Positions 3,442 through 34,242 of a DNA stretch of 34,620 bases are shown here, in pieces. The notes under the pieces were generated by a model. It had not been told where the DNA came from. It worked only from the letters and a program-made list of their open reading frames with translations, and ran no database searches. Positions within the stretch are counted from its first letter, which is position 1; each line of letters opens with the position of its first letter. The stretch is from a virus (taxonomy: Duplodnaviria > Heunggongvirae > Uroviricota > Caudoviricetes). A program made the position numbers and the translations under genes. Location: the IMG/VR virus record IMGVR_UViG_2529293040_000020; one strand, 5' to 3'.

Positions 3442-3626
3442 TGTGCACATCCTTTTGGCATCAGACGTAAACGAGCCAGCATTGAAACAATGCATATTTT
3501 ATTTAATAGCTCCCGTTCTTGTTTTCTCTTGTTAATGGCATCTTCAGTAAATACTGGGTTACTGATAGTGACACCAATTTCAAAACAACCTTCAGACGTA
3601 TTAACGTTTGGTAATAACGTTTTCAT
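3438..3626 (-). CDS. Hypothetical small protein (62 aa)
   Basis: ORF starting MKTLLPNVNTSEGCFEIG... with GAGGA RBS about 8 nt upstream; AT-rich. Confidence 0.35.
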   Translation of the reverse strand: MKTLLPNVNTSEGCFEIGVTISNPVFTEDAINKRKQERELLNKICIVSMLARLRLMPKGCAQ

Positions 3627-4194
3627 TATCGCGTCCTCAACAATGAATTTTGTGATGCAGTGCCTGGTGCCTCCAGGTGACGTTAACCAGTTAACAATTA
3701 ACGCCGGATACAGAGAATCCACCCATAACACTGTTTTTGGTTTTAACTGTTCCGCGTGCGCTCAGCCGCATTCACCACATCACAAAATTCACTTTAAAAA
3801 GGGCGGCAGAGCAGTCACGGAGTAAAACTGATACCGCCAAACGTCACCAGAAAATTGATAACAGAGGGCGTTGCAGCGGGGTTGTCACTTAAGCGTATGG
3901 TCAACCTGACAACCCGGTGTCCTCAACGGGGGAAGGAATAACCCCGCCATACTTACCGCCGCGCCATTTCGCGGATTGCCACAACCGGAAGCGCACGGTC
4001 GACGAAAATTTAACGACAGGCTATCTATGAACCAGCTACCTCGCCGTGCGCTTTCGCGTTATGGTCTGACTTTTCAGGGAAATATCCTTTCAGTAAACTG
4101 TCAGTGCCGGATGCTCACCCGTGTCCGGCGCACGCACTCCACCTCATCCGTGGAGAACTCCTTAATTACCAACCTTAGCTTCGTTGGTTAGCTA

Positions 4195-4413
4195 TTAACG
4201 CGGGTATGTAATCATTCTGGCAATGCTTAATGTCGCTGCTTTTTCCAGATTAGTGATATCCTGCTCCAGAGCGGACAGATTTTCAGCCTGCTTAGCCCTG
4301 GCTTCATTGGCCCATTTCAGATCCTGCGCTGCATTAATTTTCTGGCGCATCCACTCATAAAGTTCATCATCGGTATAGTCTGGCGCGATGATGACGGGTT
4401 CTCGTTTCTGCAT
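4195..4413 (-). CDS. Hypothetical early-operon protein (72 aa)
   Basis: ORF MQKREPVIIAPDYTDDELYEWMRQ... with GAGGAA RBS 5 nt upstream. Confidence 0.45.
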   Translation of the reverse strand: MQKREPVIIAPDYTDDELYEWMRQKINAAQDLKWANEARAKQAENLSALEQDITNLEKAATLSIARMITYPR

Positions 4414-4443
4414 ACTGATTCCTCGCGGTGCTGTTTCGCTTAT

Positions 4444-4821
4444 CAGCCGTTAGATTTTGCCGAACTGGAAAGTGCCTGTTTAAATTCGCTGAAGCTGAGA
4501 GCTTCTTCGCCTTCGGCAAGACCTTCGAAGTATTCTTCGTAAGCCTTTTCCATGATTGTGTCGAAATCCATATCACCCACCTGAATTTCTTTCCAGCCAG
4601 CGACGCGCTCCAGATTCGGTTTTAAACGTTTTGCTTTTGGTATACGTCATCGCGGTGAACGTACCGTCCTGGTTGGGGAACACGCCACATACCAGAGATT
4701 CGCTGTTGCCAAGATCGATAGTATCCATGTTGACCTCATTTCCCCTTAACGCCGGGGTAGCGGAACTGTTTGCTGAGAACACCGTGCGGTGTCTTGATGG
4801 ATCGTAATTTAGTTTTCTCAT
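4444..4821 (-). CDS. Hypothetical early-operon protein, apparently frame-shifted within an A/T-rich run (about 4620-4640)
   Basis: N-terminal frame MRKLNYDPSRHR...MDTIDLGNSESLV... stops at 4573; downstream frame continues as acidic protein-like sequence ...MDFDTIMEKAYEEYFEGLAEGEEALSFSEFKQALSSSAKSNG. Confidence 0.4.
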
Positions 4822-8379: not shown

Positions 8380-9226
8380 ATGAGGAAAAAATCGTTTGGA
8401 CGTTGCCCGTTTGATTTCGACGAAGATGTAAAAAAAATAGCCGCGATAAATAAATATATCCATGCGAAATTTGAGAGGCATAAAAATAAAATAGATAACC
8501 TAAAGGGGGTGGAACAAAAATTGATGGTTTTACATTACTTTAATGTACTGAATGAACTTAGTAATCAGGCTATATTTTCTTTGAGTACCGGAGCCTTTTC
8601 AGCATCGGAAGTATTAACTAGAGTTATAATGGAACAGGCTGCCAATCAATTTTATATAGCAATTGATGATGGAAAAAATGCACAAGCATTACTCAAGGGT
8701 AGTAAGAAATTAGTTCATAGTAATGGGAAACGGTGGCTGGAGTGTTTAAAATCCAAAGAAATGACTAATCCAGCAGCAGATGAAAGGATTCGTATCGGAA
8801 AAGAGCTAACTGATATGTTTAATAGATTGTGGCCAAATACACCTGAATATCCTGGAACCAAAAAGCTTTTCGAAGTAATTGGCTGGGAAACACACTATCA
8901 TGCCTATTACGTCCCTCTTTGTGATTCAATACATACATTCTCTGATGATATGGCAAATATAGTATCTCTATATAATGCAATCCAAAGCGATAAAACTACT
9001 GCTATCGAACTCACTCTTAGCAGTTAAACAAGAAAATAAACGGCTGGCAATTTATAATGTCGTAATTGCTATTGGCCTGCGGTGTGAGGCCTTAGTAAAT
9101 GTATTTAACTCTTTAGGTTATCGAGATATTATAACTGAAATGGCGCCAACAATAGATGCAGTCAACCAGATTATAATTCGATATGATGATTTCGAACATT
9201 CCAGAATTTTTATTGTCAATAATTAA
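8380..9226 (+). CDS. Unknown AT-rich island protein, read as 215-aa and 83-aa pieces that probably form one protein of about 280 aa (frame change between 8975 and 9027)
   Basis: Strong RBS (AGGAGG) before ATG 8380; second piece has no own RBS and starts inside the first; low GC compared with phage genes. Confidence 0.4.
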
Positions 9227-9279
9227 TTGGCAGAATTCGTACATGCACAACAACTAGTTATAGTTGACCTATTTCGCTC

Positions 9280-9848
9280 TTGAGAGACAACCATACTCAA
9301 ATCTTCCACATTGCAGGAGATTTGAGTATGAATACGTCACCGAGGAACAAAGACAGTATCATAGGCCCAAAAAGACCACTTCAGATATCTCATATCTGGG
9401 GGCTCCAAATCCGGCTTGAACTGGAAGGTAAAACGCGTGATTTAGCTCGGTTTCAAGCAGAGCTACGGTGCTGCAACTGAAAAACTGGCAGTCCTATCCA
9501 ATTTGAGATAACCAAAGGGACAAGAGAAGCTGTTTCTGCATTGATAAAGCTTGGCAATTTACGCAGTAAAGACTACTTGTTCCGATCTCGGGTCGGTACT
9601 AACCAACACATATCAATCCTGCAATATAACCGAATCTTTCATAGGGGGGAGAAAAGCTTGGTCTCGAAGATTCGCTTTACAGCACACATTCCATGAGAAG
9701 AACAAAACCTTGCCTTGTCTGCAAGAAAACTAAGAATCTCCGGGTGATCCAACTTCCGTTGGGCCATAAGAAAACGGAAAGCACAGTTCGTTATCTGGGT
9801 ATAGAAGTTGATGATGCATTAGAGATCTCTGAATCGATCGAAGTCTAA
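9280..9848 (+). pseudogene. Decayed tyrosine recombinase (integrase catalytic domain remnant) with several frameshifts and stops
   Basis: Across three frames: KRPLQISHIWGLQIRLELEGKTRDLA, PIQFEITKGTREAVSALIKL...DYLFRSRVGTNQHISILQYNRIF, FTAH(S)MRRTKP...KKTKNLRVIQLPLGHKKTESTVRYLGIEVDDALEISESIEV*; H-x-x-R and the catalytic RY motif are present. Confidence 0.55.
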
Positions 9849-9854
9849 AGCTGT

Positions 9855-9920: not shown

Positions 9921-10260
9921 TCAATATCAATACCAACAACTCTGATTGTGCTCATGTGATTTACTCCTGTAGAAAACGCAGACAGTAAAAATATTTCACT
10001 GGCTGCTTCAGACAGGGCGTCCATCATATCATTACATAACAATAGCGGGGCACGATATCTAGACATGCAGCAACGATGGACATAGAATGAGTACAATCAA
10101 AAGCATGTTTAACTACTTTAATTTAAAAATCTTAGAATCTTAGGTGTAGAGTTCAATACTTAGTTACATACCCTTTTGAAAGCATCACAAATCATAACTA
10201 TGAGCCTGTTAAAGGCATAGGTATTCTTAATTAAGAGCATTTTAATGAGAGAAAAATAAA

Positions 10261-11633
10261 ATGAAAAGACTATATTATACCCATCATGATAGTCGAACCT
10301 TAAAACTTGCTATAGAAGGTGATGTTTCTGATAATGCGAATATTTTTACAGTAATTGTAGGTAAAAATGGCGTTGGAAAAAGCAGATTGTTATCTCAGAT
10401 TGCTAAAGACTGTATTCAAGATATTCATTTCTTGAAAACTTTTAATCCATTATTTGACAGAGAAATAACACCAAAGTTAATTGCCGTATCTACCAGCCCA
10501 TTCGATAAATTCCCTCCAGGGCGTAGGTCATTAAATCACCAAAGGAAAGAAAATAATTATCGCTATGTGGGTATGCGTGGAGAAGGCCCCTTCGGCGTAT
10601 CAAATGCCGTATCCCTTTTATCTTCAGCAGCGAGAGGTTGGCTAGAGAAACTTGCTTATTCAGAAAATCCTGCAAATTTACTCGATGTTTTTCATTCTAT
10701 TGATTTTGAGCCCCATATAGAGTTTGTATTTAAACCAACTTACAACGGACCGGACACTCCTGACTATAACTTCATTGGTGTATATTCAGATGAGATATTA
10801 ACGGAAGTTAAGGAGTTATATTTAAAATACAATATAAAAATTGACAGGAAGAATATTGAGAGTCTCTTAAAGTTAAACTCCGAATCACGTCATGATATTT
10901 ACGAAGCACTGGTTGAAATTAATCGATTTGAACCTGAACGTAGGGCTGTAACCTTGTCAGTCGATTTTACCAATGGTGAAACATTGGTTGGCTCGACTTA
11001 TGCGAATAATTATTTTTCTAGATCAATTCTTAAACTTATGAACGCTGGCTTCATGAGATTGATGGATATGCGACTCATAAAAAAAGCTATGGTCCCATGT
11101 CACTTAAACGTGCGAGCTCGGGAGAACAATGTTTATTAGTGATGTTGCTTGGAATTGCAGGGCATATAACTGATGGTTCTATAATACTAATTGATGAACC
11201 GGAAATAAGCTTGCATCCTCGATGGCAGGAAGAGTTTATCATTATGTTAACAAAAGCATTTTTAACTTACTCAGGTTGTCAATTCATAATTGCAACTCAT
11301 TCACCACAAATAATATCCAATTTGCCGAATAAAGGTTGTTATATAACATCTTTGTCGAAAAGTTATCTTTATAAAGCAAAATACTTTAGCAACCGGTCTG
11401 CAGACTATCAACTTGCGGAACTATTTGATGCCCCTGGCATTATGAATGAATACATTGCCAGATTAGCTTTCAATTTACTTTCAAAAGTTAAGACTGCTAA
11501 GTTAGTAACAGATGATAATTGGCGTGAATTAAAACAACTCCAGCTTCTCCTTGAAAACGTTAATAGTAATGACCCTATTAATGAACTCGTAAATTCCGTA
11601 TCTCAGGTGTGTGAAATTTATGCCAAAAATTAA
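10261..11633 (+). CDS. ABC/AAA15-type ATPase (Septu PtuA-like candidate), read in two frames with the shift at or near an A7 run (11079-11085)
   Basis: Walker A VIVGKNGVGKS in 10261-11139; ABC signature SSGEQ, Walker B IILIDEPE and H-loop IATHSP in 11097-11633; frames are open in parallel between about 11034 and 11139. Confidence 0.7.
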
Positions 11634-12255
11634 AAATCCAATTAGATTCAGCGCAGAGTCATTAGATATTATTGAGAAAAAATTGTCTTCTCCAGATTTT
11701 AAGCATACCAACTGGGGAGATGATGATTTGCAAGTTCTCCGTGCAGAAATTAGAAATCATTACAGAGAAGAACAAAAGCTAGAATGTGTATATTGTCATG
11801 AGCCTATTGGGGTAAGAGCTGCACAAGCTGCTCCTATAGAGCATATTGTGCCAAAATCTCAATATCTATGTTTTATTTTTGAACCTAAGAATCTATGTGT
11901 AGTATGTCCTGACTGCAATGAATTCAAAGGTAAAAATGAAGTGTTATTTGAACCCGTAATAAATGGGGGGCGGCGCAAAAACTATCCAACTGCATCTGCA
12001 TCATTTCGCATCGTTCATCCACATATAGATGATTATGAGATGCATATTATAAAAGCAAATCGTGTTTATGTGGACAAAACACCTAAAGGGCACTATACCA
12101 TTGGAATATGTAAACTAAATAGATTTTTTCATTATTTTGGGATGTGTGATGAATTTGTTAATGATGCAAAAATTGCTGAGGCAAATGAAAATTTTTTCAA
12201 AAAAGGTAGTATTACTACTAATGAATTATTGGATGATGACATTCATTTGATTTAA
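11611..12255 (+). CDS. HNH endonuclease (Septu PtuB-like candidate)
   Basis: CVYCHEPIG...IEHIVPKSQ...CVVCPDCNEFKG (Cys/His HNH pattern); start overlaps the ATPase stop, indicating a co-translated operon. Confidence 0.7.
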   Translation: MKFMPKIKNPIRFSAESLDIIEKKLSSPDFKHTNWGDDDLQVLRAEIRNHYREEQKLECVYCHEPIGVRAAQAAPIEHIVPKSQYLCFIFEPKNLCVVCPDCNEFKGKNEVLFEPVINGGRRKNYPTASASFRIVHPHIDDYEMHIIKANRVYVDKTPKGHYTIGICKLNRFFHYFGMCDEFVNDAKIAEANENFFKKGSITTNELLDDDIHLI

Positions 12256-14038: not shown

Positions 14039-14275
14039 ATGATGAACATCGAAGAACTGCGTAAAATTTTTTGTGAAGATGGCCTCTATGCTGTGTGCGT
14101 TGAAAATGGAAATCTTGTTAGTCATTACCGCATTATGTGTTTGCGAAAGAATGGGGCTGCGTTAATTAATTTTGTGGATGGTCGAGTGACAGACGGATTT
14201 ATCTTGCGCGAAGGTGAGTTTGTCACTTCATTACAGGCACTGAAAGAGATCGGAATAAAAGCAGGCTTTTCGTAA
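14039..14275 (+). CDS. Hypothetical small protein whose last codons are replaced by the IS66 insertion
   Basis: ORF MMNIEELRKIFCEDGLYAVCVENG...; stop codon is supplied by the IS left end; without the IS the frame would read ...KAGFSAFAEE*. Confidence 0.4.
   Translation: MMNIEELRKIFCEDGLYAVCVENGNLVSHYRIMCLRKNGAALINFVDGRVTDGFILREGEFVTSLQALKEIGIKAGFS
14264..14271. repeat. Left copy of the 8-bp target site duplication GGCTTTTC of the IS66-family element
   Basis: Identical 8-mer directly abuts both ends of the element. Confidence 0.75.
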
Positions 14276-14324
14276 CCGGCTCATTTAAACCGTCTGGTCT
14301 GTTTCCTCCGGCTCTACAAAAATA

Positions 14325-15001
14325 ATGTCCATCATTTTTAATGGACACTATCGTATGAAACACCGGACCTGGATCACTGAAGCTTTACGTCTTCACTTTG
14401 AAGAACATTTACCCCGGGTTGTGGCCGGGCGTCGCCTGGGTGTACCAAAATCAACAGTTTGTAGTATGTTCGTGCGCTTTCGGAGAGCTGGCCTTTCGTG
14501 GCCTTTGCCCGCAGGCATGTCGGAGCAGGAACTTGATGCCTGCCTTTACGGACAATTTTCCACGGTACCAGTCGTACGTCCTGAAAGCACCGTTATATCC
14601 GAAGCCCCCGTGGTAAAAAAACGTCCCCGGCGGCCCAACTTCCCTTATGAGTTTAAAATCGCCTTAGTGGAGCAGTCACTGCAGCCCGGAGCCTGTGTGG
14701 CGCAGATCGCCCGGGAAAACGGAATCAACGATAACCTGCTCTTCAACTGGCGCCATCAATACCGGAAAGGTGGCCTGCTGCCTTCCGGAAAAATATGCCG
14801 GCACTGCTTCCCGTGACGTTAACGCCGGAGCCGGATAATAAAATCCCGGCCCCCGCACAGGAACCAGAGCAGATAAATACACCGTCCGACAGTCTGTGTT
14901 GTGAGCTGGTTCTGCCGGCCGGAACTCTCAGGCTTAAAGGTAAACTGACGCCGGCGTTATTACAGACACTTATCCGCGAAATAAAAGGGAGCAGCCACTG
15001 A
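14325..15001 (+). CDS. tnpA: IS66 accessory protein TnpA (HTH), read in two frames with the change near 14795-14816
   Basis: KRPRRPNFPYEFKIALVEQSLQPGACVAQIARENGINDNLLFNWRHQYRKG (transposase_8-type HTH) then other frame PALLPVTLTPEP...; A7 run at 14613-14619. Confidence 0.5.
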
Positions 15002-15348
15002 TGATATCTCTCCCTGCAGGTTCGCGTATCTGGCTGGTTGCAGGTATCACCGATATGCGAAATGGCTTTAACGGCCTGGCATCAAAAGTTCAGAACGTCC
15101 TGAAGGATGACCCGTTCTCCGGACACCTGTTCATCTTCCGCGGACGCCGGGGTGACCAGATAAAAGTGTTGTGGGCTGACAGTGACGGACTGTGCCTCTT
15201 CACCAAACGCCTGGAGCGGGGCCGCTTCGTCTGGCCAGTCACCCGTGACGGCAAGGTGCACCTTACTCCGGCTCAGTTATCCATGCTTCTTGAAGGTATC
15301 AACTGGAAGCACCCGAAACGAACGGAACGCGCTGGAATCCGCATATAA
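15001..15348 (+). CDS. tnpB: IS66 Orf2-like protein TnpB
   Basis: MISLPAGSRIWLVAGITDMRNGFNGLASKVQNVLKDDPFSGHLFIFRGRRGDQIKVLWADSDGLCLFTKRLERGRFVWP is the characteristic IS66 TnpB sequence. Confidence 0.85.
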   Translation: MISLPAGSRIWLVAGITDMRNGFNGLASKVQNVLKDDPFSGHLFIFRGRRGDQIKVLWADSDGLCLFTKRLERGRFVWPVTRDGKVHLTPAQLSMLLEGINWKHPKRTERAGIRI

Positions 15349-15367
15349 CCCGTTGTAAAGTGAGGAT

Positions 15368-16939
15368 ATGGACACCTCACTTGCTCATGAGAACGCCCGC
15401 CTGCGGGCACTGTTGCAGACGCAACAGGACACCATCCGCCAGATGGCTGAATACAACCGCCTGCTCTCACAGCGGGTGGCGGCTTATGCTTCCGAAATCA
15501 ACCGGCTGAAGGCGCTGGTTGCGAAACTGCAACGTATGCAGTTCGGTAAAAGCTCAGAAAAACTTCGTGCAAAAACCGAACGGCAGATACAGGAAGCACA
15601 GGAGCGAATCAGCGCACTTCAGGAAGAAATGGCGGAAACGCTGGGTGAGCAATATGACCCGGTACTGCCATCCGCCCTGCGCCAGTCTTCAGCCCGTAAA
15701 CCGTTACCGGCCTCACTTCCCCGTGAAACCCGGGTTATCCGGCCGGAAGAGGAATGCTGTCCTGCCTGTGGTGGTGAACTCAGTTCTCTGGGATGTGATG
15801 TGTCAGAGCAACTGGAGCTTATCAGCAGCGCCTTTAAGGTTATCGAAACACAACGTCCGAAACAGGCCTGTTGCCGGTGCGACCATATCGTGCAGGCACC
15901 AGTACCTTCAAAACCCATTGCACGCAGTTATGCCGGAGCGGGGCTTCTGGCCCATGTTGTCACCGGGAAATATGCAGACCATCTGCCGTTATACCGCCAG
16001 TCAGAAATATACCGTCGTCAGGGCGTGGAGCTGAGCCGTGCCACACTGGGGCGCTGGACAGGTGCTGTTGCTGAACTGCTGGAGCCGCTGTATGACGTCC
16101 TGCGCCAGTATGTGCTGATGCCCGGTAAAGTCCATGCTGATGATATCCCCGTCCCGGTCCAGGAGCCGGGCAGCGGTAAAACCCGGACAGCCCGGCTGTG
16201 GGTCTACGTCCGTGATGACCGTAACGCCGGTTCACAGATGCCCCCGGAGGTCTGGTTCGCGTACAGTCCGGACCGGAAAGGTATCCATCCACAAAATCAC
16301 CTGGCCGGTTACAGCGGTGTGCTTCAGGCCGATGCTTACGGTGGTTACCGGGCGTTATACGAATCCGGCAGAATAACGGAAGCCGCGTGTATGGCTCATG
16401 CCCGGAGAAAAATCCACGATGTGCATGCAAGAGCGCCCACCTACATCACCACGGAAGCCCTGCAGCGTATCGGTGAACTGTATGCCATCGAGGCAGAGGT
16501 CCGGTGCTGTTCAGCAGAACAGCGTCTGGCGGCAAGAAAAGCCAGAGCCGCGCCACTGATGCAGTCACTGTATGACTGGATACAGCAACAGATGAAAACA
16601 CTGTCGCGTCACTCAGATACGGCAAAAGCGTTCGCATACCTGCTGAAACAGTGGGATGCACTGAACGTGTACTGCAGTAATGGCTGGGTGGAAATCGACA
16701 ACAACATCGCAGAGAACGCCTTACGGGGAGTGGCCGTAGGCCGGAAAAACTGGATGTTCGCGGGTTCCGACAGCGGTGGTGAACATGCGGCGGTGTTGTA
16801 CTCGCTGATCGGCACATGCCGTCTGAACAATGTGGAGCCAGAAAAGTGGCTGCGTTACGTCATTGAACATATCCAGGACTGGCCGGCAAACCGGGTACGC
16901 GATCTGTTGCCCTGGAAAGTTGATCTGAGCTCTCAGTAA
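15368..16939 (+). CDS. tnpC: IS66-family transposase TnpC
   Basis: 523 aa; N-terminal coiled coil, zinc finger CPACGGEL...CRCDH, DDE region typical of IS66 TnpC. Confidence 0.85.
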
Positions 16940-16969
16940 ATATCAATACGGTTCTGACGAGTCGCTTAC

Positions 16970-24703: not shown

Positions 24704-24957
24704 TAAAACGGGTAGATGTACTTCACATGATACTTATACTTGGCAGTACATTTTCTGACAGACAGTGACGGATGTTGTCAAGATATTGTGTCATTTATAA
24801 CCTGAATCAGGGGTTGGCCGGAATGTTATCTGGCATTTTTAGCAGAGCCTGAATGCCATAATCACGGCTCCCGGCGTTGGCCGTCAGTGGGTGACACTGG
24901 CGGCTTTTTGTTTTCTTACTTTCATTTTCTGTCGGCGGTGACGGAGACATACATCAG

Positions 24958-30773: not shown

Positions 30774-32363
30774 AACGAACGCCTGTCCTGATTGATGTGA
30801 ACGGCGTTCCGCTTCGGGATAGCCTCAGCTACAACGGGGGCGGTGCAGGATTTGGCGGGCAAATGGCGGAGTGGTTGCCACCGGCGCAGAGTGCCGATGC
30901 GGCCCTGCTGCCCGCGTTGCGTCTGGGGAATGCCCGGGCAGATGATCTGGTGCGCAATAACGGAATAGCGGCCAATGCGGTGGCCCTGCATAAGTATCAC
31001 ATTGTCGGGCATATGTTTCTTATCAGCTACCGTCCGAACTGGCGCTGGCTGGGGATGCGGGAGACCGCAGCAAAAAGCTTTGTCGATGAGGTGGAGGCGG
31101 CCTGGTCGGAATACGCCGAAGGGATGTCTGGCGAGATCGACGTGGAAGGAAAACGCACGTTCACGGAATTTTATCCGTGAAGGTGTGGGCGTTCATGCGT
31201 TTAACGGCGAAATCTTTGTGCAGCCGGTCTGGGATACGGAAACCACGCAGTTATTCCGTACGCGTTTTAAAGCCGTGAGTCCGAAACGGGTGGACACGCC
31301 AGGACACGGTATGGGGAACCGTTTTCTGCGGGCCGGGGTGGAGGTCGATCGATATGGCCGTGCCGTTGCGTACCATATCTGTGAGGATGATCTTCCGTTC
31401 TCCGGGAGTGGACGATGGGAACGGATCCCGCGTGAACTTCCCACCGGGCGTCCGGCCATGCTGCATATTTTCGAGCCGGTGGAGGACGGGCAGACCCGTG
31501 GGGCCAACCAGTTTTACAGCGTCATGGAACGGCTGAAGATGCTCGATTCCCTGCAGGCAACACAGCTTCAGTCGGCCATTGTGAAAGCCATGTATGCAGC
31601 GACGATTGAAAGTGACCTTGATACCGAAAAGGCCTTTGAATATATCGCCGGTGCGCCGCAGGGGCAGAAGGATAATCCGCTTATTAATATTCTGGAGAAG
31701 TTCTCCAGCTGGTATGACACGAATAACGTGACGCTGGGTGGTGTCAAAATTCCGCACCTTTTCCCCGGGGATGATCTGAAACTACAGACTGCGCAGGATT
31801 CAGACAATGGATTTTCGGCGCTTGAACAGGCGCTGCTGCGGTATATCGCCGCCGGTCTTGGCGTTTCCTACGAACAGTTGTCCCGTGATTACTCGAAGGT
31901 CAGTTATTCAAGTGCCAGGGCCTCTGCCAATGAGTCGTGGCGCTATTTTATGGGGCGGCGAAAATTTATTGCGGCCCGGCTGGCCACGCAGATGTTTTCC
32001 TGCTGGCTGGAAGAGGCACTTCTTCGGGGGATTATCCGTCCGCCACGGGCGCGTTTTGATTTTTATCAGGCGCGATCAGCCTGGTCACGGGCAGAGTGGA
32101 TTGGTGCCGGAAGAATGGCCATTGACGGGCTCAAGGAGGTTCAGGAATCGGTGATGCGCATTGAGGCCGGACTGAGCACGTATGAGAAAGAGCTGGCGCT
32201 GATGGGCGAGGATTATCAGGACATTTTCCGCCAGCAGGTCAGGGAATCTGCTGAGCGACAAAAAGCCGGACTCTCACGTCCGGTGTGGATAGCGCAGGCG
32301 TATGAGCAGCAGATAGCGGAGAGTCGCAGGCCGGAAGAGGAGACAACACCCCGTGAGACGTAA
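30770..32363 (+). CDS. B: Portal protein B, interrupted by a frameshift at a T4 run (31169-31172)
   Basis: Lambda gpB-like; frame 1 ends ...KRTFTEFYP*, the other frame continues IREGVGVHAFNGEIFVQPVWD... matching lambda ...KRTFTMMIREGVAMHAFNGELFVQ. Confidence 0.85.
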
Positions 32364-33858
32364 TCTTTCACACATTATTGCCGCAGCATTCAATGAACCG
32401 CTGCTTCTGGAGCCCGCCTATGCGCGGGTTTTCTTTTGCGCGCTCGGGCGCGAGATGGGGGCATCAAGTCTTTCGGTACCACAACAGCAGGTACAGTTTG
32501 ATGCTCCCGGAATGCTGGCTGAAACGGACGAGTACATGGCCGGAGGTAAACGACCGGCCCGTGTTTACCGGGTGGTGAACGGTATTGCGGTACTGCCGGT
32601 GACCGGCACGCTGGTGCACCGGCTGGGGGGGATGCGGCCATTTTCCGGAATGACTGGCTATGACGGCATTGTCGCCTGTCTTCAGCAGGCAATGGCAGAT
32701 AGCCAGGTGCGGGGCATACTGCTGGACATTGACAGTCCGGGCGGGCAGGCCGCCGGCGCGTTTGACTGCGCTGACATGATTTACCGCCTCCGTCAGCAGA
32801 AGCCGGTCTGGGCACTGTGCAATGACACGGCCTGTTCTGCAGCCATGCTGCTGGCGTCGGCCTGCTCCCGACGGCTGGTTACCCAGACATCCCGTATCGG
32901 CTCCATTGGCGTGATGATGAGCCATGTCAGCTATGCCGGTCATCTGGCGCAGGCCGGTGTGGATATCACGCTGATTTACTCAGGGGCGCACAAGGTGGAT
33001 GGCAATCAGTTTGAAGCCTTACCGGCAGAGGTTCGCCAGGACATGCAGCAGCGCATTGATGCGGCGCGCCGGATGTTTGCCGAAAAAGTGGCCATGTTTA
33101 CCGGTCTGTCTGTTGATGCCGTCACGGGAACAGAGGCCGCCGTTTTTGAAGGTCAGTCCGGCATTGATGCCGGGCTGGCGGATGAATTAGTCAATGCGTC
33201 GGATGCCATCAGTGTGATGGCCACGGCGCTGAACAGTAATGTCAGAGGAGGCACTATGCCGCAATTAACTGCAACGGAAGCCGCCGCGCAGGAGAACCAG
33301 CGAGTGATGGGGATCCTGACATGCCAGGAAGCGAAAGGACGTGAACAGCTTGCCACGATGCTGGCAGGACAACAGGGCATGAGCGTTGAACAGGCCCGGG
33401 CGATTCTGGCCGCGGCGGCACCGCAGCAGCCGGTGGCATCCACGCAGAGTGAAGCCGATCGCATTATGGCGTGTGAAGAAGCGAACGGTCGTGAACAACT
33501 GGCGGCAACGCTGGCGGCGATGCCGGAGATGACGGTGGAAAAAGCCCGCCCGATCCTGGCTGCTTCACCGCAGGCGGATGCCGGACCCTCACTCCGTGAT
33601 CAGATCATGGCACTGGATGAGGCAAAAGGGGCTGAGGCGCAGGCTGAACAGCTGGCTGCCTGCCCGGGAATGACTGTGGAGAGCGCCCGGGCTGTGCTGG
33701 CTGCGGGATCAGGTAAGGCAGAACCGGTCTCTGCATCCACAACCGCCCTGTTTGAACGCATCATGGCGAACCATTCACCGGCAGCGGTACAGGGTGGCGT
33801 GCCACAGACGTCAGCAGACGGTGATGCGGACGTGAAAATGCTCATGGCCATGCCATGA
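32353..33858 (+). CDS. C: Head protease/scaffold protein C (S49 ClpP-like) with a tandemly triplicated C-terminal segment
   Basis: AFNEPLLLEPAYARVFFCAL... and GIAVLPVTGTL...MTGYDGI... match lambda gpC; GTG start overlapping the portal stop. Confidence 0.85.
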   Translation: MRRNLSHIIAAAFNEPLLLEPAYARVFFCALGREMGASSLSVPQQQVQFDAPGMLAETDEYMAGGKRPARVYRVVNGIAVLPVTGTLVHRLGGMRPFSGMTGYDGIVACLQQAMADSQVRGILLDIDSPGGQAAGAFDCADMIYRLRQQKPVWALCNDTACSAAMLLASACSRRLVTQTSRIGSIGVMMSHVSYAGHLAQAGVDITLIYSGAHKVDGNQFEALPAEVRQDMQQRIDAARRMFAEKVAMFTGLSVDAVTGTEAAVFEGQSGIDAGLADELVNASDAISVMATALNSNVRGGTMPQLTATEAAAQENQRVMGILTCQEAKGREQLATMLAGQQGMSVEQARAILAAAAPQQPVASTQSEADRIMACEEANGREQLAATLAAMPEMTVEKARPILAASPQADAGPSLRDQIMALDEAKGAEAQAEQLAACPGMTVESARAVLAAGSGKAEPVSASTTALFERIMANHSPAAVQGGVPQTSADGDADVKMLMAMP

Positions 33859-33894
33859 AGCCAGTGCTGACCATCAACAGGAGGTTTTTACAAT

Positions 33895-34242
33895 ATGGTG
33901 ACGAAAACTATCACTGAACAGCGTGCGGAAGTACGTATTTTTGCCGGTAATGATCCGGCTCATACCGCCACAGGCAGCAGCGGGATTTCCTCGGCAACAC
34001 CGGCACTGACGCCACTGATGCTGGATGAGGCCACCGGGAAACTGGTGGTCTGGGACGGACAAAAAGCCGGTAGTGCGGTTGGCATACTGGTACTGCCGCT
34101 TGAAGGCACAGAGACGGCGCTGACCTATTACAAGTCGGGGACCTTTGCGACGGAGGCAATCCGCTGGCCTGAAAGTGTGGATGAACACAAAAAGGCCAAC
34201 GCCTTTGCCGGCAGTGCCCTGAGTCACGCGGCGCTGCCGTAA
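33895..34242 (+). CDS. D: Head decoration protein D
   Basis: NDPAHTATGSSGISSATPALTPLMLDEATGKLVVWDG...YYKSGTF resembles lambda gpD. Confidence 0.85.
   Translation: MVTKTITEQRAEVRIFAGNDPAHTATGSSGISSATPALTPLMLDEATGKLVVWDGQKAGSAVGILVLPLEGTETALTYYKSGTFATEAIRWPESVDEHKKANAFAGSALSHAALP

What the first reader, a model, noticed from the sequence alone, without database searches (positions are those of the whole stretch)
11034..11139. ATPase is split between Walker A and signature/Walker B, probably at an A7 run
Two reading frames are open in parallel across 11034-11139; a single A gained or lost in the A7 run (11079-11085) would join ...FMRLMDMRLIKK to SYGPMSLKRASSGEQ... into one ATPase of about 455 aa. 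This could be a sequencing error, an inactivating mutation, or a slippery tract that switches the system on and off.
Basis: seen in the sequence. Interest (0 to 1): 0.6.

Follow-up and report, generated by a model that had tools for sequence, protein, structure and literature searches.

The report
Septu ATPase gene broken by homopolymer miscall
The split ATPase is the ptuA gene of a known two-gene anti-phage system (Septu) on an E. coli prophage, and the missing A that breaks it is most likely a homopolymer sequencing error in a draft assembly, so the finding is ordinary.

Summary
There is an A7 run at 11079-11085. ORF 10261-11139 (Walker A) and ORF 11097-11633 (signature, Walker B) overlap in different frames, and adding one A gives a single 457-aa protein.

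That protein matches the PADLOC PtuA profile end to end. The next gene is PtuB (HNH), so this is a type I Septu defence system, carried on a lambdoid prophage beside potC.

Window positions 261-21139 are identical to contig AIFA01000040.1 of the E. coli DEC2A draft. Compared with the finished genome of the near-identical strain E2348/69, the window has 11 homopolymer shortenings and 1 lengthening. The rate rises with run length: 2 of 3 runs of eight and 2 of 5 runs of seven are shortened. These changes also frameshift other genes, including an IS481 transposase (three times) and the phage terminase and portal genes.

Of the 19 complete E. coli genomes that carry the locus, 18 have A8 and one gene. 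Homologues down to 42% identity are single chains. The split in this window is therefore most likely an assembly artefact (about 0.8).

One caveat: the tract is a recurrent indel site elsewhere. A7 or A9 occurs on at least six SNP haplotypes, often in otherwise clean contigs. Real loss-of-function alleles probably exist; programmed phase variation is unproven.

The parts
10261..11633 (+). ptuA (Septu ABC-type ATPase) as it would read with an A8 tract: 457 aa
   Evidence: The joined translation matches PADLOC PtuA PDLC00283 at residues 2-455 against profile positions 3-447/448, E 1.9e-165. Pfam gives AAA_21 and AAA_15. It is identical to WP_000827088.1, annotated as a single CDS in E2348/69 and other complete genomes and found on 473 contigs.
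10261..11139 (+). 5' fragment of ptuA as it reads in the window: 292 aa, made of residues 1-274 plus an 18-residue out-of-frame tail
   Evidence: ORF list. Equals WP_000827087.1 / EHU32104.1 of E. coli DEC2A.
10360..10383 (+). Walker A motif GKNGVGKS (aa 34-41)
11079..11085 (+). A7 homopolymer, the frameshift site. It is A8 in 18 of 19 complete E. coli genomes that carry the locus.
11097..11633 (+). 3' fragment of ptuA in the -1 frame (frame open from 11034; 178-aa ORF from the first ATG). Carries signature SSGEQ (11115-11129), Walker B IILIDEPE (11181-11204) and H-loop ATHSP (11292-11306). No recognisable Shine-Dalgarno sequence lies ahead of the ATG.
   Evidence: Equals WP_032162705.1.
11620..12255 (+). 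ptuB (HNH nuclease, 211 aa). Its start overlaps the end of ptuA by 14 nt.
   Evidence: PADLOC PtuB PDLC00325, E 1.1e-83. Pfam HNH. Annotated as HNH endonuclease WP_001124204.1.

Best explanation
The locus is an ordinary type I Septu anti-phage system. It consists of ptuA (ABC-type ATPase, 457 aa) followed by the overlapping ptuB (HNH nuclease), and sits between the replication and nin/hokD regions of a lambdoid prophage integrated beside potC. The window comes from the draft assembly of E. coli DEC2A. The real gene most likely has an A8 tract, and the deposited A7 is a homopolymer under-call of the kind that occurs throughout this contig. On this reading the 'split' is an assembly artefact and the strain makes a normal single-chain PtuA.

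How the system works is inferred from published Septu work, not shown here. PtuA oligomers hold PtuB through PtuA's C-terminal extension. On phage infection the nuclease is released or activated and cuts host targets (tRNA-Tyr variable loop, DNA), which aborts the infection. Both the Walker A/B and HNH motifs are required.
For: Provenance:
- Window 261-21139 is base-for-base identical to AIFA01000040.1, GCA_000249155.2, E. coli DEC2A.

Error pattern in the contig:
- Against the finished E2348/69 chromosome (99.9% identical), homopolymer runs are shortened at a rate that rises steeply with run length: 1/1068 (length 3), 1/357 (4), 2/137 (5), 3/39 (6), 2/5 (7), 2/3 (8). There are 11 shortenings and 1 lengthening.
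- Together with a few indels outside homopolymer runs, these frameshift the integrase, exonuclease, DUF5677 gene, IS481 transposase (three times), DUF1133 gene, large terminase and portal genes.

The intact state is one gene:
- 15 complete genomes read directly have A8, and 3 more show it by alignment span. In all of them ptuA is one gene.
- The exact 457-aa protein is on 473 contigs, against 2 contigs in the cluster table (5 in the contig look-up) for the 292-aa fragment.
- Listed homologues from 42 to 100% identity are 440-470 aa and cover essentially the whole query.

Rough posterior (inference): about 43% of the other runs of 7 or more are miscalled in this contig, and at most about 5% of carriers have off-length alleles. 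That gives roughly 0.9 for an artefact.

Identity and mechanism:
- System identity.
- Mechanism: PMC13096335 and PMC12819146.
Against: - No reads were available, so the A7 call itself is untested.
- The same A7 allele occurs in other, apparently clean contigs. L008 (ERR181302) is identical to the window over 2.3 kb, including A7, and has no other indel. A genuine A7 in DEC2A is therefore possible.
- I could not confirm the sequencing platform of the DEC2A draft, because the paper is not held. That it was a pyrosequencing-era draft is my recollection only.
Confidence: 0.8

Rival explanations
1. Genuine inactivating mutation. Replication slippage shortened A8 to A7 in the DEC2A lineage. PtuA is then truncated after residue 274, losing the signature, Walker B, H-loop and the C-terminal extension that binds PtuB. 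ptuB also loses its translational coupling to ptuA. The result is a Septu pseudogene in a decaying prophage.
For: - Off-length alleles exist in other isolates. A7 occurs in 12 further assemblies of this allele group and in L032, a lineage 88% identical to this protein; A9 occurs in one.
- In nine of these contigs, none of 67 other runs of 6 or more and none of about 219 runs of 5 differ from the reference, so general noise does not explain them.
- A7 lies on at least six SNP haplotypes, five of which have A8 twins, which points to recurrent events.
- The prophage carries IS insertions and pseudogenes even in finished genomes.
Against: - In this contig, 3 of the 7 other runs of 7 or more are also shortened, in genes that are intact in near-identical strains. 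The local error rate therefore far exceeds the population frequency of true A7 alleles (at most about 5%).
- Among complete genomes, the only A7 carrier (Z1323PEC0010) also has a G6-to-G5 frameshift in cro.
- The target is the only run of 8 in the clean contigs, so a length-specific error cannot be excluded there either.
Confidence: 0.15
2. Contingency locus. The A8 tract is a selected, reversible on/off switch (phase variation) that lets the lysogen population toggle a costly abortive-infection system.
For: - A7, A8 and A9 alleles all occur, and they are homoplasic across haplotypes.
- The tract is retained in homologues of 85-90% identity despite nearby synonymous changes, and it is frameshifted again in one of them.
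Against: - There is no within-strain evidence and no rate measurement.
- 18 of 19 complete genomes are ON.
- The tract is interrupted (A6TA) in the 70%-identity Dickeya homologue. Retention of AAA AAA is what E. coli lysine codon preference and a 35% GC gene would give anyway (codon usage from general knowledge).
- From general knowledge, eight A's is short for a contingency tract, and E. coli is not known to use poly-A phase variation.
- A few percent of off alleles is what neutral decay at a mutational hotspot would produce.
Confidence: 0.04
3. The two-frame arrangement is functional. Either the two halves work as a two-piece ATPase, or full-length PtuA is made from the A7 template by -1 ribosomal frameshifting or RNA polymerase slippage on A AAA AAA.
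For: - ORF2 is in the -1 frame, and the in-phase heptamer A_AAA_AAA is a formal -1 slippery site.
- From general knowledge, some low-level bypass is plausible at such runs.
Against: - Homologues are single-frame.
- There is no stimulatory RNA structure downstream (z = -0.91) and no Shine-Dalgarno-like element upstream of the site or of the 11097 ATG.
- The arrangement is a rare variant inside A8 haplotypes.
Confidence: 0.01

Closest known systems
Type I Septu defence system (PtuA ABC-ATPase + PtuB HNH nuclease), e.g. Septu EcB88, Septu of E. coli ATCC 25922, and the solved stand-alone PtuAB (PDB 8EE4 series)
   Same: Same two-gene architecture with overlapping genes. There are full-length matches to PADLOC PtuA/PtuB profiles. 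Walker A, signature, Walker B, H-loop and HNH motifs are all present. No reverse transcriptase is annotated nearby.
   Different: It belongs to a PtuA subfamily (PDLC00283) that is only distantly related to the solved PtuA proteins: the PDB match is confined to the signature/Walker B region, E 3e-7 for 8EE4. This copy has not been tested against phage. In the window the gene reads as frameshifted.
Retron type I-A (Retron-Eco7/Ec78) PtuAB effector module
   Same: Homologous ATPase-nuclease pair.
   Different: No RT, ncRNA or msDNA partner is present. The retron PtuA proteins are about 550 aa with extra elements (PMC12819146), whereas this one is 457 aa.
Homopolymer indel errors of pyrosequencing, ion-semiconductor or nanopore assemblies
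   Same: One-base under-calls whose rate depends on run length and which are biased towards shortening, producing spurious frameshifts and split genes across the contig.
   Different: This particular tract also varies in contigs that show no other homopolymer error.
Phase-variable restriction-modification and Pgl/BREX genes with simple-sequence tracts (contingency loci)
   Same: A coding homopolymer whose length change switches a defence gene between in-frame and out-of-frame, with length polymorphism among isolates.
   Different: The tract is short (A8). There is no within-strain switching data, most isolates are ON, and the tract is not conserved in more distant homologues.

Membership tests
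Septu type I (PtuAB) | PtuA: ABC-type ATPase with Walker A, signature, Walker B and H-loop in one chain | tested here: met
   Met for the A8 reconstruction: PDLC00283, E 1.9e-165, end-to-end match, with motifs located. As literally written in the window (A7) the chain is broken after residue 274.
Septu type I (PtuAB) | PtuB: HNH nuclease encoded immediately downstream | tested here: met
   PDLC00325, E 1.1e-83. Pfam HNH scores 24 bits, above the 21.4 cut-off. There is a 14-nt overlap with ptuA.
Septu type I (PtuAB) | Stand-alone pair, not attached to a retron RT/ncRNA | tested here: met
   In finished genomes the neighbours are a DUF5677 gene, a recombinase pseudogene, and IS481 or hokD. No RT is annotated. 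No explicit ncRNA search was run.
Septu type I (PtuAB) | Protects against phage; needs ATPase and HNH motifs | not testable with these tools
   Shown for other Septu systems only (PMC13096335).
Assembly artefact (homopolymer under-call) | Indels against a finished near-identical genome are concentrated in homopolymers, rise with run length and are biased to shortening | tested here: met
   2/3 runs of 8, 2/5 of 7, 3/39 of 6, 2/137 of 5. There are 11 shortenings and 1 lengthening.
Assembly artefact (homopolymer under-call) | Other genes in the same contig are frameshifted in the same way | tested here: met
   IS481 transposase three times, plus the DUF5677 gene, integrase, exonuclease, terminase L and portal.
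Assembly artefact (homopolymer under-call) | Raw reads or Sanger sequence show A8 in DEC2A | not testable with these tools
   No read data could be accessed.
Phase-variable contingency locus | Tract length differs among isolates, on independent backgrounds | tested here: met
   A7, A8 and A9 all occur. A7 lies on at least six haplotypes, five of which have A8 twins.
Phase-variable contingency locus | High-frequency reversible switching within a clonal population | not testable with these tools
   Needs read pileups or fluctuation assays.
Phase-variable contingency locus | Tract conserved beyond what coding and codon usage explain | tested here: inconclusive
   A8 is kept at 85-90% identity but interrupted (A6TA, K-N) at 70% identity. 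AAA is the preferred Lys codon (general knowledge).
Programmed -1 frameshift / transcriptional slippage gene | Two-frame architecture conserved in homologues, with stimulatory elements | tested here: not met
   Homologues are single-frame. No downstream structure was found.

The most novel reading that the evidence does not exclude
The A8 tract in this prophage-borne ptuA may be a true hypermutable switch. In this reading lysogens repeatedly and reversibly turn the Septu abortive-infection system off (A7/A9) and on (A8), which would make it a phase-variable non-RM defence system in E. coli. The evidence does not exclude this: off-length alleles recur on at least six haplotypes and in a Klebsiella-like homologue, often in otherwise error-free contigs.
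Probability: 0.06. Interest if true: 0.45.

Novelty: not a real feature. Interest (0 to 1): 0.1.

Why it matters
It matters mainly as a caution. Split 'ATP-binding protein' plus 'AAA family ATPase' annotations such as WP_000827087.1 and WP_032162705.1 come from a one-base homopolymer difference in a known Septu gene, and should not be read as a new two-piece ATPase. The underlying system is a standard prophage-encoded Septu. The only point of some biological interest is that this A8 run appears to be a recurrent site of loss-of-function in natural isolates. That fits the general picture of costly abortive-infection systems being easily lost.

Tried and rejected
- Genuine two-gene ATPase: rejected, because homologues are single chains and 18 of 19 complete genomes have one gene.
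- Programmed frameshifting: no downstream RNA structure, no upstream Shine-Dalgarno-like element, and the two-frame layout is not conserved.
- Using shared SNPs to show whether DEC2A belongs to a clone with a real A7: the locus is too conserved. The only informative site near the locus is a SNP private to E2348/69. The output was also needlessly long.
- Finding the DEC2A genome announcement to confirm the sequencing platform: the paper is not held.
- Literature search for phase-variable non-RM defence systems with homopolymers: nothing relevant to Septu or E. coli.
- PDB sequence search: only distant matches, limited to the signature/Walker B region. No structure prediction was run because it would not bear on the question.
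- Promoter/terminator scan: the number of sites is no greater than in shuffled sequence. Candidate promoters at 10060-10138 are only suggestive.

Full report
**1. Observation**

The sequence is as described.
- Positions 11079-11085 are an A7 run flanked by T and G.
- ORF 10261-11139 (292 aa) starts with a P-loop, GKNGVGKS, at aa 34-41.
- The frame that holds ORF 11097-11633 (178 aa) is open from 11034, so two frames are open side by side over 11034-11139.
- The second frame is the -1 frame of the first. Gaining one A (A8) fuses them; losing one A does not.
- The fused product is 457 aa. It has the ABC signature SSGEQ at aa 286-290, Walker B IILIDEPE at 308-315 and the H-loop ATHSP at 345-349.
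- An A7 run is not remarkable alone, since the window has seven A/T runs of 7 or more. What makes the split real as a sequence feature is that homology continues across the frame change.

**2. What the gene is**

- The fused protein matches PADLOC PtuA profile PDLC00283 as one stretch: residues 2-455 against profile positions 3-447 of 448, E 1.9e-165.
- The next gene (11620-12255, overlapping ptuA by 14 nt) matches PtuB profile PDLC00325, E 1.1e-83.
- Pfam gives AAA_21/AAA_15 for the first gene and HNH for the second.
- This is therefore a type I Septu system. The pair is AT-rich: 34.6% GC against 48.6% for the window.
- Solved PtuA and AriA structures match only around the signature/Walker B region, so this is a subfamily with no solved structure, but not a new kind of system.

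Published work on other Septu systems gives the likely mechanism.
- Walker A/B and HNH motifs are required for defence, the phenotype is abortive infection, and tRNA-Tyr is cut in its variable loop (PMC13096335).
- Stand-alone PtuA forms a hexameric platform that holds PtuB through PtuA's C-terminal extension (PMC12819146).
- By inference, a truncation after residue 274 would remove the catalytic C-lobe and the PtuB-binding extension, and would uncouple ptuB translation. A true A7 allele should be off.

**3. Where the window comes from**

- A megablast against complete E. coli genomes found the 2.3-kb locus in 19 genomes.
- The window aligns at 99.9% to the lambdoid prophage beside potC/potD of EPEC E2348/69.
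- There the locus lies between the replication genes (plus a DUF5677 gene and a recombinase pseudogene) and IS481/hokD/rem, and it is annotated as one 'AAA family ATPase' (WP_000827088.1) plus an 'HNH endonuclease'.
- An exact-protein look-up showed that window 261-21139 is identical to contig AIFA01000040.1 of the E. coli DEC2A draft, GCA_000249155.2.

**4. Why the A7 in this window is probably not real**

The differences between the window and E2348/69 include many one-base deletions inside homopolymers. Counting every homopolymer in the aligned 30 kb gives:

| Run length | Shortened / total |
|---|---|
| 3 | 1 / 1068 |
| 4 | 1 / 357 |
| 5 | 2 / 137 |
| 6 | 3 / 39 |
| 7 | 2 / 5 |
| 8 | 2 / 3 |

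- In total there are 11 shortenings against 1 lengthening.
- These changes, with a few indels outside homopolymer runs, frameshift genes that are intact in the finished genome: the integrase (49), the exonuclease (2325), the DUF5677 gene (9019, 9207), the IS481 transposase three times (12645, 12781, 13336), the DUF1133 gene (19226), the large terminase (30054) and the portal gene (31169).
- Three independent frameshifts in a 1-kb transposase, two of them inside T runs, are not credible biology.
- This is the signature of homopolymer under-calling. I recall the DEC collection drafts as pyrosequencing-era assemblies but could not verify this.

A rough calculation follows. About 43% of the other runs of 7 or more are miscalled in this contig, and the population frequency of off-length alleles is at most about 5% (see section 5). 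The posterior that this A7 is an artefact is then about 0.9. I report 0.8 to allow for the untested reads.

**5. Comparison with other genomes**

- Fifteen complete genomes read directly have A8 and a single 457-aa gene. Three more show the same by alignment span.
- The one A7 carrier among complete genomes, Z1323PEC0010, also has a G6-to-G5 frameshift in cro.
- The exact 457-aa protein is recorded on 473 contigs. The 292-aa fragment is on 2 contigs in the cluster table (5 in the contig look-up), and the 178-aa fragment on about 21-31.
- The listed homologues from 42 to 100% identity are 440-470 aa and cover essentially the whole query.

**6. The tract does vary elsewhere**

- Contigs retrieved through the fragment proteins show A7 in 12 further assemblies and A9 in one, SRR10011137.
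- In nine of them the tract is the only homopolymer that differs from the reference: 0 of 67 other runs of 6 or more, and 0 of about 219 runs of 5.
- On a 1.9-kb alignment, A7 sits on at least six SNP haplotypes. Five of these are also represented by A8 genomes, so the change is homoplasic.
- A lineage 88% identical to this protein, and so close to the Klebsiella homologues, carries the same A8 and one A7 copy, L032.
- A Dickeya homologue at 70% identity has the run interrupted, ATAAAAAATAGC.

My reading is that the A8 run is a genuine indel hotspot that now and then produces natural loss-of-function alleles. Length-specific sequencing error cannot be fully excluded, because this is the only run of 8 in those contigs.

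Nothing requires selection for switching.
- 18 of 19 finished genomes are ON.
- The run is short for a contingency tract.
- Keeping AAA AAA is what codon preference in an AT-rich gene would give.
- A few percent of off alleles fits neutral decay at a hotspot.

**7. Other readings rejected**

- A functional two-piece ATPase is contradicted by the single-chain homologues and by the lack of a ribosome-binding site before the 11097 ATG.
- The in-phase heptamer A_AAA_AAA could formally allow -1 frameshifting or RNA polymerase slippage into the correct frame.
- However, there is no downstream structure (z = -0.91), no upstream stimulator, and no conservation of the two-frame layout. Any bypass would be incidental.

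**8. Verdict**

- The system is a known Septu. The split is most likely not a feature of the organism.
- Interest is low. The most novel reading that remains is a phase-variable Septu, at a probability of about 0.06.

Noticed in passing
window 49, 2325, 9019, 9207, 12645, 12781, 13336, 19226, 19385, 19498, 30054, 31169: One-base (in one case two-base) indels relative to E2348/69, most of them shortened homopolymers. They frameshift the prophage integrase, exonuclease, DUF5677 gene, IS481 transposase (three times), DUF1133 gene, large terminase and portal genes. The whole contig seems to carry homopolymer miscalls, so any frameshift-based finding in this window is suspect.
   Followed up: yes
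window 14272-16969: An IS66-family element (HTH_Tnp_1 ORF, TnpB_IS66, DDE_Tnp_IS66) is inserted here relative to E2348/69, just after rem. The two flanking alignments overlap by 8 bp in the reference (15630-15637), which fits an 8-bp target duplication.
   Followed up: partly
window about 24905-24910 (E2348/69 L003 23573-25839): E2348/69 carries ISEc13 plus IS200C here. The window lacks both, so the two nearly identical prophages differ mainly in their IS content.
   Followed up: partly
window 32353-34242: The window keeps a full S49 head-maturation protease (501 aa) and a lambda gpD-like decoration protein. In E2348/69 the S49 gene is truncated and joined to tail genes. The DEC2A prophage is therefore less deleted in the head module.
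   Followed up: partly
window 8380-9226 and 9264-9850: A DUF5677 gene (280 aa when intact; no PADLOC match) and a decayed tyrosine recombinase lie just upstream of ptuAB in every carrier examined. Together with Septu they form a conserved AT-rich insert between replication gene P and hokD. The role of the DUF5677 gene is unknown.
   Followed up: partly
L017 (SRR10011137) 1312-1340; L032 (SRR23690836) 114-1486: An A9 allele of the same tract occurs in one E. coli run. An independent A7 allele occurs in a ptuA lineage only 88% identical to this one, whose intact relatives also have A8.
   Followed up: yes
L002/L005 (CP148282.1, Z1323PEC0010): This 'complete' genome is the only finished assembly with the split ptuA. 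It also has a G6-to-G5 frameshift in the prophage cro gene, so its A7 may be a long-read homopolymer error as well.
   Followed up: partly
L010 (VRYA01000070.1) 3460-4622; L028 (NCTC9112) 957-2119: In one haplotype group an IS3 element sits between the recombinase pseudogene and ptuA, about 500 bp upstream of the ptuA start. This might affect Septu expression.
   Followed up: no
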